This document shows, one piece after another, positions 2,461-20,545 of a DNA stretch of 64,000 nucleotides. The number at the start of each line of letters is the position of its first letter. The stretch's first letter is position 1. The DNA is from Alphaproteobacteria bacterium (GTDB taxonomy: Bacteria > Pseudomonadota > Alphaproteobacteria > UBA11136): NCBI GenBank assembly GCA_030739855.1, contig JASLYJ010000005.1:181-64180 (forward strand), given 5' to 3'. Both the position numbers and the translations under genes were made by a program. The notes beneath the pieces were generated by a model. It was not told the origin of the DNA. It did no database searches and saw only the letters and a program-made list of their open reading frames with translations.

Positions 2461-3627
2461 TCAACGAGAGGACGATTTTTTGGCCTTGTCATCATAGAAC
2501 TCCGATAGCGGGTGATGCTCTTCAACCAAGGATTTAAGGCGCTTGTCCTGAACATAGGTGTAAATTTGGGTGGTGGTGATATCGGCGTGTCCCAGCATTT
2601 TTTGAACACTGCGCAAATCGGCGTCATGATTGAGAAGGTGGGTTGCAAAGGCATGTCGAAGTATATGGGGATATACCCGGCTTGCGTCCATATTCGCATC
2701 CATCACCAACTGTTTTAATATCTGGGCAAAACGTTGGCGGGTGAGCTGGCCGCTAGCTGAACGGGAGGGAAAGAGCCAGGGAGAGGACGAGGCTGAACCT
2801 TCGCCTTTACCCCCCGGCAAGAAGGTATCCCGCACCATAAGATAGTCGGCCAGAGCCTCGCCTGCGGGATCACTCAGGGGAACCATGCGCTCCCGATCAC
2901 CCTTGCCACGCACGAGAAGAAGAGAAAGATCCCGTTCCGGTGCCGACAGGGGAAGCCCCACCAGTTCCGAAACGCGCAGGCCGGTAGCGTAGAGAATCTC
3001 AAGAAGGGCAATAAGGCGGATATCCCTGGCAACGCCACCAGCCAGCTTGGCTAGCTGTTTCTGCAGCTTTTTGCGGTCATAATCAGAGGAAGTTTTCTCG
3101 ATCTGCTGACGGATATGGCCATAACGGGCCTTGCCTTCCGTGACATGTCGGTGGGCAAGATCGAGAAGTTTTTCCACTTCTTCCTCGCTCAACACTTTCG
3201 GTAGAACCCGCCCCTGGCGGGGACTATCCACCGCGGAACTAAGGTCGTCCTGTAGAACGGGATTATCTTGGCGATGGCCCTGGCTAAAGAGAAACCAGAA
3301 GAACTGTCGTATTGCAGAAAGGCGGCGAGCGGTGGTGCGTGGCGCCATGCCGAGATCCACCTGTTTTGCAAGATAATCCCGTATAGCCTGCGTATCGGCA
3401 GATTCTAAAGTTTCCCCTCGAGCTTTCAGAAACTCTTCGAACTGGGTCAGGTCGTTGGAATAAGCATCAAGTGTATTACTTGAAAGCCCTCTTTCAGCTA
3501 CCAGCATTTCGAGGAAAGATTCCACATGGCGGGAGACGAGCGTTTTTTTCTTGGGGGATTTCCTGGCGATAAGTTTCTTCTCGGAAGCCTTTTTTTTAGG
3601 ATTAGTGGCATCGAATCGTCTGTCCAT
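2461..3627 (-). CDS. xerD: Tyrosine recombinase XerD with a Lys-rich N-terminal extension and an internal 35-aa GroEL-like insertion
   Basis: Motifs seen: LSSNTLDAYSNDL, ILYATGLRVSELVGL, HILRHAFATHLL, LGHADITTTQIYTYV. The start is placed at ATG 3627, the first ATG after the upstream gene's stop at 3650. The tracked ORF extends to 3690. Confidence 0.85.
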   Translation of the reverse strand: MDRRFDATNPKKKASEKKLIARKSPKKKTLVSRHVESFLEMLVAERGLSSNTLDAYSNDLTQFEEFLKARGETLESADTQAIRDYLAKQVDLGMAPRTTARRLSAIRQFFWFLFSQGHRQDNPVLQDDLSSAVDSPRQGRVLPKVLSEEEVEKLLDLAHRHVTEGKARYGHIRQQIEKTSSDYDRKKLQKQLAKLAGGVARDIRLIALLEILYATGLRVSELVGLPLSAPERDLSLLLVRGKGDRERMVPLSDPAGEALADYLMVRDTFLPGGKGEGSASSSPWLFPSRSASGQLTRQRFAQILKQLVMDANMDASRVYPHILRHAFATHLLNHDADLRSVQKMLGHADITTTQIYTYVQDKRLKSLVEEHHPLSEFYDDKAKKSSSR

Positions 3628-3649
3628 GACACTGCTCGCGTTATCCGCC

Positions 3650-5599
3650 TCAGAGCCCAGCGGCAATGGCGGCTTCCAAGGCCAGGGCACGGGCCTCTTT
3701 ATCGAGCCCTACTAGACGCAGGTGGCTAATAATCTCGTTCAAAGTGATAGGATGAACCAAGCTCAGGTCACCGCTCCCGAGAGCAACCAGAGAAAAAAGA
3801 ATGGTTTCCCCCAGACGCAGTTCCTCCGCAGCCATCCGGAGACCATACCACAGAACAGGGGACGGCAGGGACAGATCGGGAAGCGAGACACTTTTCTGTG
3901 CCTCCTCCTTTTCGCCAAGAGCCTTTTGGAAACGGTCTTCCCAAACAGAAATGTCTACCGGCTTTCCCACAGAATCGAGGAGGCCTAGAAGCATATCTCC
4001 ACGGTATCTCGCCACCGATTCTGCATTCTTGATCCCGGCCGAGGGGTCGTCGCCATCTTCATCAGACGACATTAAAACTACTACGCCTTGTTTCACCCAG
4101 GCCTTGGTCATAGCTCCATCTAGAGGGGTGGGTTCATCAGGATTGGAGAGCTGGATCAAAGGCCATAAGCGCGCCGTTACTTGCCTCGCCTCTGGAAGGC
4201 CAGGAGCTTCTCGTTCTGCCAAGTCGTACCAATCCATAGCCTGTTCCAAGGCCCCGGTGAAAATTAGGACCCGTCCTGCCTCCTCTGCGAACCATATGAG
4301 TTCGGCAGCGGGGGCTATGTCGATCAGAATCGGAGAAATGACACGTGCCGCAGTCTCGTAGAGATCTCCATTCCTTGCCGATTCCAGAAAGGTCAGAAGC
4401 ACCTCGGCACGGGCAGTCGGCACATCCTGAACCTTAGCCGTGCGCAACAGCAATGCCCGGCCCCGGGGCCCGTCAATGGCTTCGGCCGTGGTCAGGGCGG
4501 ATTCCAGTTCTTCGGAGGTAAATTCAATGCTGGCGTAAATCTGGCGCAGAGATTCCGTGGACAGGACGCCCGCCGATTCGGCCTTCTCGGCCGCGGTAAG
4601 ACGGATTTCCGGGTCGGCATTGGGACTGATGGCAATAGCGGCCAAAAGGGCCGGATTTTGTGTTTGTGTGACATCACCGGGCAATCTCAGATTTCCCGCC
4701 CGCGCTATGGCCAATTGCAGGGCCGTGGGATAGGAAAGACTGTTGATCTCCCCTTCCCATTCCCCGAGAAGGGAACCGACGAGTCTGAAAAATACCGAGT
4801 CCGCATCCATCCCCTGTTCCCGCATCAGGTTGACACCCAAGGCCGCACGGGCATTTTCGCCATTTAGTACCTGGCAAAAAATCAGGCCTTTCTGCCAGAA
4901 GGAATCCTGTGATTTACGTACGGCCACCATGATATGGGGACAGGCCTCGGCGCTGTCATTGACAAGAAACAGATTGTTCACCTGGGCCCTGAGAAGAGCT
5001 TCGTCATCAAGATGTACTGGCGCCACCCCGAGTAATGATTCAACGGCTTCCGTGTCGCCCATGGCCATAAGGCGAGCAATGCGAAGAGCCATGAGACTCA
5101 CCCCTTCAGACACCCCATACGGCGCTGTAGCATTCGACAACAGGAGGCGCCGCATAAGATCCCGCATGGTCCGGGAATGAGTCGTGACGGGAAGTTTCGG
5201 CAATAACCATTCGACGGTTTGACGATTGCTTCCACTCCACATTTCTGTGCCGAACCCGCCCTGTTCCACATCCCAAATACCTACGGAATCAGGATCAATG
5301 GTCTGAAGCATGTCTGTTTCGATATGGGCTCCTGATTCCACGTCGGTGACAGAAGCAGGTTCCGTTCTCTTCGGAAGCGGCAAACCCGCCCCTCCCGCAG
5401 GCTTTTCTCCATCCGAGGATGGTGTAAGTACTACCGGTGGCCGCGACTGAGGCGAAAAGACTGGATCGGACCGCGCCTCACGAGCGGCGACAAATCCTGT
5501 ATACGACATGGAGAACACAAGAGAACTAGCCACCAGAAGCCTGATGGCGGAGAAAGCATCTCCGTTTTTCCATGAAGCATCAGCGTGGAAATTTTTCAT
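3650..5599 (-). CDS. Hypothetical exported protein, 649 aa, Ala/Leu-rich helical-repeat-like
   Basis: Long ORF with a hydrophobic N-terminal segment (IRLLVASSLVFSMSYTGFVAA). No family was recognised by eye. It sits between xerD and aroK. Confidence 0.6.
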   Translation of the reverse strand: MKNFHADASWKNGDAFSAIRLLVASSLVFSMSYTGFVAAREARSDPVFSPQSRPPVVLTPSSDGEKPAGGAGLPLPKRTEPASVTDVESGAHIETDMLQTIDPDSVGIWDVEQGGFGTEMWSGSNRQTVEWLLPKLPVTTHSRTMRDLMRRLLLSNATAPYGVSEGVSLMALRIARLMAMGDTEAVESLLGVAPVHLDDEALLRAQVNNLFLVNDSAEACPHIMVAVRKSQDSFWQKGLIFCQVLNGENARAALGVNLMREQGMDADSVFFRLVGSLLGEWEGEINSLSYPTALQLAIARAGNLRLPGDVTQTQNPALLAAIAISPNADPEIRLTAAEKAESAGVLSTESLRQIYASIEFTSEELESALTTAEAIDGPRGRALLLRTAKVQDVPTARAEVLLTFLESARNGDLYETAARVISPILIDIAPAAELIWFAEEAGRVLIFTGALEQAMDWYDLAEREAPGLPEARQVTARLWPLIQLSNPDEPTPLDGAMTKAWVKQGVVVLMSSDEDGDDPSAGIKNAESVARYRGDMLLGLLDSVGKPVDISVWEDRFQKALGEKEEAQKSVSLPDLSLPSPVLWYGLRMAAEELRLGETILFSLVALGSGDLSLVHPITLNEIISHLRLVGLDKEARALALEAAIAAGL

Positions 5600-18581: not shown

Positions 18582-20545
<1,964 letters not shown>

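What the first reader, a model, noticed from the sequence alone, without database searches (positions are those of the whole stretch)
3028..3132. In-frame 105-nt groEL-derived patch inside xerD
The xerD segment 3028-3132 and the groEL segment 19113-19217 both lie on the minus strand, in the same orientation and the same reading frame. By my hand count they align without gaps at 89 of 105 nt. The peptides match at 29 of 35 residues: XerD reads [35 protein letters not shown] and GroEL reads [35 protein letters not shown]. In GroEL this is the highly conserved ...[29 protein letters not shown]... helix. In XerD the patch sits exactly where this protein is about 35-37 residues longer than E. coli XerD, as I recall that sequence, between ...LSEEEVEKLL... 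and the catalytic-domain motif ...LEILYATGLRVSELV. Ten of the 16 nucleotide differences are synonymous, which suggests the inserted peptide has been kept under constraint. An ectopic copy of a chaperonin gene fragment inside a housekeeping site-specific recombinase is very unusual.
Basis: seen in the sequence. Interest (0 to 1): 0.7.

Follow-up and report, generated by a model that had tools for sequence, protein, structure and literature searches.

The report
Chaperonin gene fragment grafted into XerD
A 105-base piece of the chaperonin gene groEL was copied, long ago and in frame, into the chromosome-resolving recombinase gene xerD of an uncultured marine alphaproteobacterium, giving a rare natural case where the source of a new protein segment can be traced.

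Summary
Window 3028-3132 (-) in xerD and 19113-19217 (-) in groEL match at 89/105 nt without gaps. The flanks match only at chance level, and this is the only repeat of 40 nt or more in the window.

It is not an assembly artefact. The same patch occurs in at least three haplotypes from independent marine assemblies. One haplotype still has the GroEL residues Cys and Gln.

It is not a conserved linker. It is absent from the six sister XerDs at about 74% identity, which share the same gene order, and from 112 other XerDs.

The sister genes read AAGGGCCGCAGGGGCGGCGCC at this site. This 21-nt stretch resembles both ends of the groEL segment. The event therefore looks like a microhomology-mediated ectopic copy, of the SPDIR or template-switch type. 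The net gain is 84 nt, or 28 codons.

AlphaFold models place the patch at the tip of the αE/αF helical hairpin and lengthen each helix by 14 residues. In E. coli XerD this loop contacts FtsKγ.

The event is old. Silent-site divergence (dS) from groEL is about 0.4-0.6, and GC3 has drifted toward the xerD value.

However, three of the four early amino-acid changes are Glu→Lys.

This is a new variant of a known kind, of moderate interest.

The parts
2461..3627 (-). xerD coding sequence, 388 aa. Some public records start it at an upstream GTG at 3690, giving 409 aa. This is the host gene of the patch.
   Evidence: Pfam PF02899 and PF00589. Best PDB relative is E. coli XerD 1A0P. Catalytic R218, K242, H321, R324, H347 and Y356 are invariant in 122 XerDs. 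Gene order is the same as in the sister lineages. dN/dS among patch-bearing strains is 0.16-0.23.
3028..3132 (-). groEL-derived patch, residues 166-200 of XerD. It comprises the two junction microhomologies and an 81-nt core found only in groEL.
   Evidence: 89/105 nt identical to 19113-19217. Present in three haplotypes. Absent from the sister XerDs.
3118..3132 (-). Left junction, an extended microhomology. The window reads AAGGCCCGTTATGGC and the sister xerD reads AAGGGCCGCAGGGGC.
   Evidence: The sister recipient sequence matches the donor at 10/15 nt, or 12/15 against the inferred ancestral donor. The background rates for such matches in the window are 0.16% and 0.004% of positions.
3037..3117 (-). 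Core of the patch, with no counterpart in patch-less xerD. It encodes HIRQQIEKTSSDYDRKKLQKQLAKLAG.
   Evidence: Alignments A1 and A2 and the codon alignment.
3028..3036 (-). Right junction microhomology. The window and groEL read GGCGTTGCC and the sister xerD reads GGCGGCGCC.
   Evidence: 7/9 nt match, against a background of 0.39% of positions. Other sister sequences give 6-7/9.
19113..19217 (-). Present-day copy in groEL of the donor segment. It corresponds to about E. coli GroEL residues 343-377, the end of the apical domain.
18582..20243 (-). groEL coding sequence, 553 aa. It is the resident chaperonin gene and lies 16,085 nt from the patch in the same orientation.
   Evidence: Pfam Cpn60_TCP1. 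100%-identical protein P0135 is in public data. groES lies directly upstream at about 20258-20545.

Best explanation
The event (inferred from sequence comparison).
- It happened in an ancestor of this marine alphaproteobacterial lineage, after the split from its closest sampled relatives.
- About 100 nt of single-stranded or newly synthesised DNA from groEL was incorporated into xerD. The donor was the cell's own groEL or that of a very close relative.
- The target was a GC-rich, glycine-codon-rich 21-nt stretch, AAGGGCCGCAGGGGCGGCGCC, which encodes the tip of the αE/αF helical hairpin.
- Both ends of the groEL fragment resemble that stretch, so the joints formed at extended microhomologies.
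- 21 nt were replaced by 105 nt, a net gain of 84 nt in frame.

Why it was tolerated (predicted).
- The piece copied encodes GroEL's own helix-turn-helix, at the end of the apical domain.
- It landed on the tip of a helical hairpin, so it simply lengthened both XerD helices by 14 residues each.
- The catalytic core was left untouched.

What followed.
- The allele was fixed.
- The patch then drifted toward xerD base composition.
- Three of its four glutamates became lysines and one arginine became glutamine, taking its net charge from +1 to +6.

Functional effect (not shown).
- The extension projects from the face of XerD opposite the DNA.
- In E. coli XerD the equivalent loop touches FtsKγ.
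- The most likely effect is none, or a modest change in FtsK-dependent activation.

What is demonstrated: homology, direction of transfer, lineage restriction, junction microhomology and age. What is predicted: the structure. What is inferred: the molecular pathway and any functional effect.
For: Homology and boundaries:
- 89/105 nt identical with sharp edges, and the only such repeat in the window.

Real and heritable:
- The identical protein is on 22 contigs from NCBI, JGI and ENA sources.
- Three haplotypes are known: KARYGH, KVRCGH and KVRCGQ. The last keeps the groEL states Cys and Gln.
- XerD catalytic residues are intact.
- dN/dS across the gene is 0.16-0.23.

Lineage-restricted:
- The loop is 2 aa long in 107 of 122 XerDs, 9 aa in the six sisters, and 37 aa only in the four patch-bearing sequences.
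- The sisters share the order 636-aa ORF, xerD, HpcH, accA.

Donor from the organism's own clade:
- The patch differs at 13-17 of 105 nt from the window groEL, 14-16 from L093, 17-19 from L091 and 30-33 from L095.
- The best plasmid or chromid groEL is only 80.8% identical.

Microhomology at both joints:
-.
- The published description of SPDIR fits. It states that ectopic ssDNA of intra- or extragenomic origin anneals at microhomologies that may contain mismatches and gaps. The resulting microindels are 3 to about 100 bp (bioRxiv 10.1101/2023.11.22.568220 and 10.1101/2024.07.02.601687).

Age:
- dS between patch and groEL is 0.41-0.57, against about 0.1 among patch-bearing strains.
- GC3 is 0.77 in the inferred donor, 0.57 in the patch and 0.53 in the rest of xerD.

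Structure:
- In the window XerD model, αE is 148-178, the turn is TSS 179-181 and αF is 182-215, with pLDDT 95-97.
- In the sister model, αE is 122-138, the turn is GKG and αF is 142-161.

FtsKγ contacts in E. coli XerD:
- Glu119, Gln123 and Ile127 (end of αE and the αE-αF loop), plus Glu184 (PMC5052618).

Charge shift:
- Three of the four stem non-synonymous changes are Glu→Lys (p = 0.002 given the available GC→AT sites; this test was chosen after seeing the data).
Against: - The ancestral recipient sequence is not observed. It is inferred from sister genes that are only 75% identical in nucleotide sequence.
- An unconstrained duplex-energy calculation gives only modest support for the joints. 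The two ends fall at the 13th and 3rd percentiles of random window 27-mers.
- At 105 nt the patch is at the top of the size range reported for SPDIR.
- 105 nt cannot tell the resident groEL from that of a close relative. Sites 63 and 75 point in different directions.
- Nothing distinguishes SPDIR from a fork template switch or from templated break repair.
- The hairpin model rests on only four nearly identical sequences in those alignment columns.
- No functional data exist.
Confidence: 0.78

Rival explanations
1. Same event, but the donor was foreign DNA. A groEL fragment from a closely related co-occurring bacterium was taken up and incorporated at the microhomologies. This would be extragenomic SPDIR or illegitimate recombination during transformation.
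For: The patch is about equally distant from the groEL of three lineages of the clade: 13-17, 14-16 and 17-19 of 105 nt. At site 75 it shares a state with L093 rather than with the window groEL. SPDIR with taken-up DNA has been shown experimentally. Related lineages co-occur: the L090 groEL is a window-type/L093-type mosaic.
Against: Three of the differences from the window groEL (sites 3, 15, 33) are changes unique to that gene and could post-date the copy. Site 63 groups the patch with the window groEL. A resident donor needs no DNA uptake. Competence in this lineage is unknown.
Confidence: 0.15
2. Adaptive domestication. The grafted hairpin was kept because it changes XerD regulation, for example docking or activation by FtsKγ or contacts within the synapse. 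The Glu→Lys changes would then be the adaptive tuning.
For: The insert sits in the loop that contacts FtsKγ in E. coli XerD. Three of the four early non-synonymous changes are Glu→Lys (p = 0.002). Residues 172-200 of the patch do not vary among the listed cluster members that span the patch, 12 of the 14 fetched. There are no indels or frameshifts, although dS from groEL is about 0.5.
Against: Purifying selection on the patch is not demonstrable (p = 0.37 with the mutation spectrum taken into account). In the window versus P0122-type comparison the patch is not more conserved than the rest of XerD: 3 of 35 residues differ in the patch against 16 of 353 elsewhere. All stem changes are GC→AT transitions, so mutation bias alone produces Glu→Lys. 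The sister-clade loop differs from the E. coli one, so the FtsKγ contact may not carry over.
Confidence: 0.2
3. Assembly or binning artefact. Metagenome assemblers joined groEL reads into xerD.
For: The source is a metagenome-assembled genome. Chimeric groEL products do exist in public metagenome data, for example L090, P0255-P0257 and P0291.
Against: The patch differs from every groEL examined at 13 nt or more and carries its own fixed substitutions. It is in frame with sharp microhomology joints. It was recovered by different projects and assemblers, including TARA scaffolds, megahit contigs and NCBI MAGs, in three haplotypes whose variation matches that of the surrounding gene.
Confidence: 0.01
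4. Convergence or an ancient conserved linker that merely resembles GroEL at the protein level.
For: None beyond the peptide similarity itself.
Against: 24 of the 35 third-codon positions are identical between the window patch and the window groEL segment (11 differ). The insert is absent from 118 of 122 close XerDs and from E. coli XerD. No other protein combining XerD flanks with the patch was found among 1.84 billion cluster representatives.
Confidence: 0.01
5. RNA-templated repair. A break in xerD was repaired using the very abundant groEL mRNA, or a cDNA made from it, as a bridging template.
For: The donor is one of the most highly expressed genes. The copy is in the sense orientation and lies entirely within the transcribed region.
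Against: There is no direct evidence. Sense orientation is required for any in-frame survivor. No reverse transcriptase was noted among the window genes examined.
Confidence: 0.05

Closest known systems
[quoted passage not shown] Described by Harms et al. 2016, as summarised in bioRxiv 10.1101/2023.11.22.568220 and 10.1101/2024.07.02.601687.
   Same: A short ectopic segment replaces a shorter resident segment. The template is identifiable elsewhere. The joints lie at microhomologies that tolerate mismatches and gaps. There is no flanking homology. An intragenomic or foreign donor is possible.
   Different: Known mainly from selected laboratory revertants of Acinetobacter baylyi, at frequencies of about 1e-13 to 1e-9. 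This case is a natural event fixed in a housekeeping gene. It sits at the upper size limit (105 nt). It is old and has drifted in composition, so the pathway can only be inferred.
Replication template switching and microhomology-mediated break-induced replication (FoSTeS/MMBIR), and templated insertions at repaired breaks.
   Same: A stretch of sequence is copied from an ectopic template reached through microhomology. Donor and recipient lie 16 kb apart in the same orientation on the same replichore (GC skew).
   Different: These mechanisms are characterised mostly in eukaryotes and in quasi-palindrome mutagenesis. No inverted repeat or significant hairpin is present at this site (z = -0.89).
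Ectopic gene conversion between paralogues, for example tufA/tufB or duplicated groEL genes (from general knowledge).
   Same: Non-reciprocal copying of a short tract from one locus to another within a genome.
   Different: Gene conversion needs homologous donor and recipient genes. xerD and groEL are unrelated, and the flanks match at chance level.
Canonical XerD, E. coli (PDB 1A0P; 5DCF with FtsKγ).
   Same: Same two-domain architecture and catalytic residues. The gene neighbourhood is conserved with the sister lineages.
   Different: The αE-αF connection is 45 residues instead of 8. It is predicted to form a helical hairpin 14 residues longer on each side, built from chaperonin sequence.

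Membership tests
XerD tyrosine recombinase (host gene) | N-terminal SAM-like core-binding domain plus C-terminal tyrosine-recombinase catalytic domain | tested here: met
   PF02899 with E = 1e-22 and PF00589 with E = 2e-38. Foldseek top hits are XerD, XerA and XerH.
XerD tyrosine recombinase (host gene) | Catalytic R-K-H-R-H-Y residues present | tested here: met
   R218, K242, H321, R324, H347 and Y356 are invariant columns in the 122-sequence alignment A2.
XerD tyrosine recombinase (host gene) | Orthology to characterised XerD rather than to a phage integrase | tested here: met
   Best PDB sequence hit is E. coli XerD 1A0P, E = 6e-57. Public sources name the close homologues XerD. Gene order is conserved with the sister lineages.
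XerD tyrosine recombinase (host gene) | Acts at dif with XerC and is activated by FtsKγ | not testable with these tools
SPDIR-type ectopic microindel | A short patch (3 to about 100 bp) of heterologous sequence replaces resident sequence | tested here: met
   105 nt stand where the sisters have 21 nt. This is at or just above the reported upper size.
SPDIR-type ectopic microindel | An identifiable template elsewhere, within or outside the genome | tested here: met
   groEL lies 16 kb away and is 85% identical now. It is about 91% identical (9 differences) to the inferred ancestral donor.
SPDIR-type ectopic microindel | Microhomology or extended microhomology at both crossover joints, with no flanking homology | tested here: met
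   Left joint 10-12/15 and right joint 6-7/9 against three sister recipient sequences. Background rates are 0.16%, 0.004% and 0.39%. Flanks match at 17/60 and 14/60. Caveat: the recipient sequence is a proxy, and the duplex-energy test gives only modest support.
SPDIR-type ectopic microindel | ssDNA intermediate annealing at the lagging-strand template; suppressed by RecA, RecJ, ExoX and DprA | not testable with these tools
   The only relevant observation is that GC skew places both genes on the leading strand, with groEL replicated first.
Homologous (paralogue) gene conversion | Donor and recipient are homologous genes with flanking similarity | tested here: not met
   The flanks match at chance level. 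XerD has no Cpn60 Pfam match.
Chaperonin (Cpn60/GroEL) domain protein | Recognisable Cpn60_TCP1 domain | tested here: not met
   Only 35 of about 548 residues are present. There is no PF00118 hit on XerD at E ≤ 0.01.
Mobile element, intein or insertion sequence | Its own ORF, terminal repeats or target-site duplication | tested here: not met
   The patch is 105 nt and is read through in the host frame. No repeats flank it.

The most novel reading that the evidence does not exclude
The chaperonin-derived hairpin may not be a passenger. It could be a domesticated regulatory appendage on the FtsKγ-docking face of XerD. Its acidic GroEL surface would have been converted to a basic one (three Glu→Lys) under selection. 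It would then change how chromosome-dimer resolution is licensed in this marine lineage. If so, this would be a documented natural case of an SPDIR-like event creating a new functional protein element from an unrelated housekeeping gene.
Probability: 0.15. Interest if true: 0.7.

Novelty: new variant of a known kind. Interest (0 to 1): 0.5.

Why it matters
The origin of insertions in conserved bacterial proteins is almost never traceable. In this case the donor, the recipient site, the joints, the age and the structural outcome can all be read from sequence.

It suggests that microhomology-mediated ectopic patches can become fixed in nature. So far these have been known mainly as extremely rare laboratory mutations.

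It also suggests that such a patch can add a ready-made secondary-structure module to an unrelated, functionally important protein. Here the module is a helix-turn-helix placed on the tip of a helical hairpin.

The location of the graft, at the FtsKγ contact loop, gives a concrete handle for testing how tolerant or tunable XerD activation is.

The practical lesson is that short intragenomic self-matches between unrelated genes are worth screening for.

Tried and rejected
- **Own genome in the GTDB representative set:** not there. The best xerD relatives are 48-50% identical.
- **Two scans of JGI metagenome contigs** gave 0 hits each. One used a degenerate pattern for the Lys-variant patch. The other used a pattern for the right junction (AGGVA[K/R]DIRL). 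These scans say nothing about how widespread the patch is.
- **Third protein search, with an 80-aa junction peptide:** only 7 candidates were indexed, and the hits are 2 GroEL fragments. Uninformative.
- **Representative-library search with a 60-aa junction peptide:** 1098 hits at E ≤ 0.001. The top hits inspected are GroEL or GroEL fragments, some internally duplicated or fused to other sequence. No second XerD with the patch appeared. The library holds only 50%-identity representatives, and the window's own XerD is not one of them.
- **Hairpin at the recipient site as a cause of fork stalling:** the fold energy is ordinary for its composition (z = -0.89). Rejected.
- **L090 groEL as an independent intermediate lineage:** rejected. 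It is a chimera of window-type and L093-type sequence.
- **Second copy of the other lineage-specific xerD insert (VLQDDL):** none in the window.
- **Rfam and tRNA scans of the window:** nothing found.
- **Literature search for XerD together with groEL and insertion:** nothing relevant.
- **Purifying selection on the patch:** inconclusive.
Full report
**1. The observation**

On the minus strand, window 3132→3028 reads AAGGCCCGTTATGGCCAT...GGTGGCGTTGCC and 19217→19113 reads AAAGCCCGCTGTGGTCAG...GGTGGCGTTGCC. They match at 89 of 105 nt without gaps. Both start at codon position 1, and the peptides match at 29 of 35 residues. The 60 nt on either side match at 17/60 and 14/60, which is chance level. 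This pair is the only direct or inverted repeat of 40 nt or more in the 64-kb window.

The host ORF 2461-3627 (-) is a XerD. It has Pfam Phage_int_SAM_1 and Phage_integrase, and its best solved relative is E. coli XerD 1A0P. The other ORF, 18582-20243 (-), is GroEL, preceded by groES. Against 1A0P the protein has 45 residues (157-201) where E. coli has 8.

**2. Real, and restricted to one lineage**

The window's own genome is not in the representative genome set. The identical XerD protein is public, however: P0121, MDP6031165.1, 'MAG: Alphaproteobacteria bacterium'. It occurs on 22 contigs from NCBI, JGI and ENA sources.

The 90%-identity cluster has 23 members. All 12 of the 14 fetched members that span the site carry the patch. 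They fall into three haplotypes:
- KARYGH... (the window)
- KVRCGH... (P0001/L081)
- KVRCGQ... (P0122/L086-L089, TARA Oceans and other assemblies)

The last haplotype keeps the GroEL residues Cys and Gln.

The next XerDs, P0002-P0007, are about 74% identical in protein and 75% in DNA. They share the order 636-aa ORF, xerD, HpcH-family lyase, accA but lack the patch. At that place they read ...EGKGR(K/R)GGAEDLRL....

In a 122-sequence alignment the segment is 2 aa long in 107 sequences, 4-5 in five, 9 in the six sisters and 37 only in the four patch-bearers. A search of 1.84 billion cluster representatives with a 60-aa junction peptide returned 1098 hits at E ≤ 0.001. The top hits inspected were GroEL or GroEL fragments, some duplicated or fused. 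No other protein combined XerD flanks with the patch.

Assembly artefact and conserved-linker explanations are therefore rejected. The direction of transfer is groEL→xerD, because the sequence is universal in GroEL.

**3. Anatomy of the event**

Codon alignment:
- Sister xerD: GAG GGC AAG GGC CGC AGG GGC GGC GCC GAG GAC CTG
- Window xerD: GAA GGC AAG GCC CGT TAT GGC CAT ... GGT GGC GTT GCC AGG GAT ATC
- groEL: GGC ATT AAA GCC CGC TGT GGT CAG ... GGT GGC GTT GCC GTA ATC

So 21 nt (KGRRGGA) were replaced by 105 nt, a net gain of 84 nt or 28 codons.

The recipient stretch resembles both ends of the donor segment:
- Left joint: 10/15 nt, or 12/15 against the donor inferred from outgroup groELs. 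The background rates of such matches in the window are 0.16% and 0.004% of positions.
- Right joint: 7/9 nt, with a background of 0.39%.
- Two further sister sequences give 10/15 and 6-7/9.

An unconstrained duplex-energy calculation is less striking. The two ends reach -13.2 and -16.1 kcal/mol, the 13th and 3rd percentiles of random window 27-mers against this GC-rich site. A hairpin at the recipient site is no more stable than shuffled controls (z = -0.89).

There is no flanking homology, no terminal repeat and no separate ORF. The event is therefore neither paralogue gene conversion nor a mobile element.

The pattern matches what is described for short-patch double illegitimate recombination. 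In that process, ectopic ssDNA of intra- or extragenomic origin anneals at microhomologies that may contain mismatches and gaps. This probably happens at the lagging-strand template, and the ssDNA is then built into the nascent strand. The resulting microindels are 3 to about 100 bp. A fork template switch or templated break repair would leave the same footprint.

GC skew of the + strand is negative across the whole window. This suggests that both genes lie on the leading strand and that groEL is replicated about 16 kb before xerD. That is compatible with a displaced lagging-strand fragment from groEL annealing at xerD. It is only a consistency argument.

**4. Donor and age**

I fetched groEL DNA from related lineages. 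L093/L094 and L091/L092 are 88% identical to the window GroEL in protein, and L095 is 80% identical.

| groEL compared | Differences from the patch, of 105 nt |
|---|---|
| Window | 13-17 |
| L093 | 14-16 |
| L091 | 17-19 |
| L095 | 30-33 |

The best plasmid or chromid groEL is 80.8% identical. The donor therefore belonged to this clade. The resident gene is the simplest candidate, but 105 nt cannot exclude a close relative.

L090 looked like an intermediate lineage. It is in fact a chimera, window-type for the first 900 nt or so and L093-type for the rest. I set it aside.

Polarising the differences with the outgroups gives the following:
- Three or four synonymous differences (sites 3, 15, 33 and possibly 60) lie on the window groEL branch.
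- Nine lie on the patch stem.
- All nine stem changes are GC→AT transitions. Five are synonymous and four are non-synonymous (E→K three times, R→Q once).

GC3 falls from 0.77 in the inferred donor to 0.57 in the patch. The rest of xerD is at 0.53. This is amelioration toward the host gene's composition.

dS between the patch and groEL is 0.41-0.57. That is comparable with the divergence between the window and sister groEL in the same segment (9 third-position differences). It is well above the dS of about 0.1 among patch-bearing strains.

The copy was therefore made early on the stem of this lineage and was fixed before the lineage diversified.

**5. Is the peptide constrained?**

On the patch stem alone, taking into account that only GC→AT transitions occurred (30 synonymous and 37 non-synonymous sites available), a 5:4 split is unremarkable (p = 0.37). 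A Nei-Gojobori style comparison, 4/80 against 5/25, gives p = 0.03. Among present strains the patch has 3 non-synonymous and 2 synonymous differences, all 3 non-synonymous within its first six residues. The rest of xerD has dN/dS of 0.16-0.23.

Constraint on the patch is therefore plausible but unproven.

The direction of change stands out more. Three of the four stem replacements are Glu→Lys, although only 4 of the 37 available non-synonymous sites give that change (hypergeometric p = 0.002; this test was chosen after seeing the data). Net charge rose from +1 to +6. Mutation bias contributes, so this is suggestive only.

**6. Structure**

An AlphaFold2 model of the window XerD has mean pLDDT 80.6, with pLDDT 95-97 over residues 150-220. 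It gives one long helix 148-178, a turn at T179-S181, and a second helix 182-215. The patch is residues 166-200.

The model of the sister XerD P0005 has αE 122-138, a turn at G139-G141 and αF 142-161. The patch therefore sits exactly at the tip of the αE/αF hairpin and lengthens each helix by 14 residues. This accounts for the whole net gain of 28 residues.

In GroEL the same segment is the last ~35 residues of the apical domain, about E. coli 343-377. From memory, it forms helices K and L, also a helix-turn-helix. From memory, several of its acidic residues face the folding chamber.

A hairpin grafted onto a hairpin tip explains why the insertion was tolerated. The caveat is that only four nearly identical sequences cover these alignment columns.

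**7. Possible function**

In the E. coli XerD-FtsKγ structure, γ docks on αE and αH. These helices lie on the face opposite the DNA. The XerD contact residues are Glu119, Gln123 and Ile127, plus Glu184 (PMC5052618). With the numbering offset visible, Gln123 and Ile127 fall at the end of αE and in the αE-αF loop. This is the segment that carries the patch.

The extension therefore projects from the regulatory face, not from the DNA-binding or catalytic face. My best estimate is that it is neutral or a mild modifier of FtsK-dependent activation. I give an adaptive role about 0.15-0.2 probability. Nothing suggests any chaperonin-like activity: only 35 residues are present and there is no Cpn60 Pfam match.

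**8. Comparison with known systems, and novelty**

The host is an ordinary XerD by every sequence test applied. The mutational class, ectopic short patches joined at microhomologies, is described. It is known chiefly from selected laboratory mutants at frequencies around 1e-13 to 1e-9.

I found no report of a groEL fragment in xerD. I also found no comparable fixed natural case in the searches run, although the library is incomplete.

I class the finding as a new variant of a known kind: a XerD with a chaperonin-derived hairpin extension. I also read it as a probable natural, fixed SPDIR-like event.

Interest is moderate, at 0.5. The case is clean and traceable and is instructive for protein evolution. 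It is a single event, and no functional consequence has been demonstrated.

Noticed in passing
L090:1001-2653 (ena:ERZ27286502:k119_493690): This groEL is a clean mosaic. The first 900 nt or so are 99-100% identical to the window groEL and the remainder is 95-99% identical to the L093-type groEL. It is either a co-assembly chimera or a natural recombinant between two co-occurring marine lineages.
   Followed up: partly
Proteins P0255, P0256, P0257, P0291, P0269, P0337 and P0271: Public metagenome proteins in which GroEL segments are internally duplicated or fused to unrelated sequence. P0291, for example, has a DinB/Pol IV-like N-terminus joined to a GroEL C-terminus. They are probably assembly or gene-calling chimeras. 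None is a XerD.
   Followed up: no
window 3241-3258 (-), 3538-3627 (-), 2464-2493 (-): Compared with its sisters, this XerD has three further lineage-specific additions. These are a 6-aa VLQDDL insert in the interdomain linker, a Lys-rich N-terminal tail of about 30 aa with pLDDT below 50, and a longer C-terminal tail. No second copy of the VLQDDL DNA exists in the window, so its origin is unknown.
   Followed up: partly
window 3650-5599 (-): A 649-aa ORF lies directly upstream of xerD. It is conserved in position in the sister lineages (636 aa) and has no Pfam match.
   Followed up: no
window 3628-3690 (-): Some public records start xerD at an upstream GTG, giving 409 aa (P0125). That start overlaps the end of the 649-aa ORF. 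The ATG at 3627 fits the homologues better.
   Followed up: partly
window 1-64000: GC skew of the + strand is negative in 15 of 16 4-kb bins, with a cumulative value of -0.59. The whole window therefore appears to lie on one replichore with the minus strand leading. No tRNA gene or Rfam family was found in 64 kb.
   Followed up: no
L082:10418-10438 and equivalents in L096 and L097: The sister clade's own αE-αF loop (EGKGRKGGA, 9 aa) is itself an expansion over the 2-aa loop of most alphaproteobacterial XerDs. It is encoded by a GC-rich run of glycine and arginine codons. This site seems prone to length change.
   Followed up: partly
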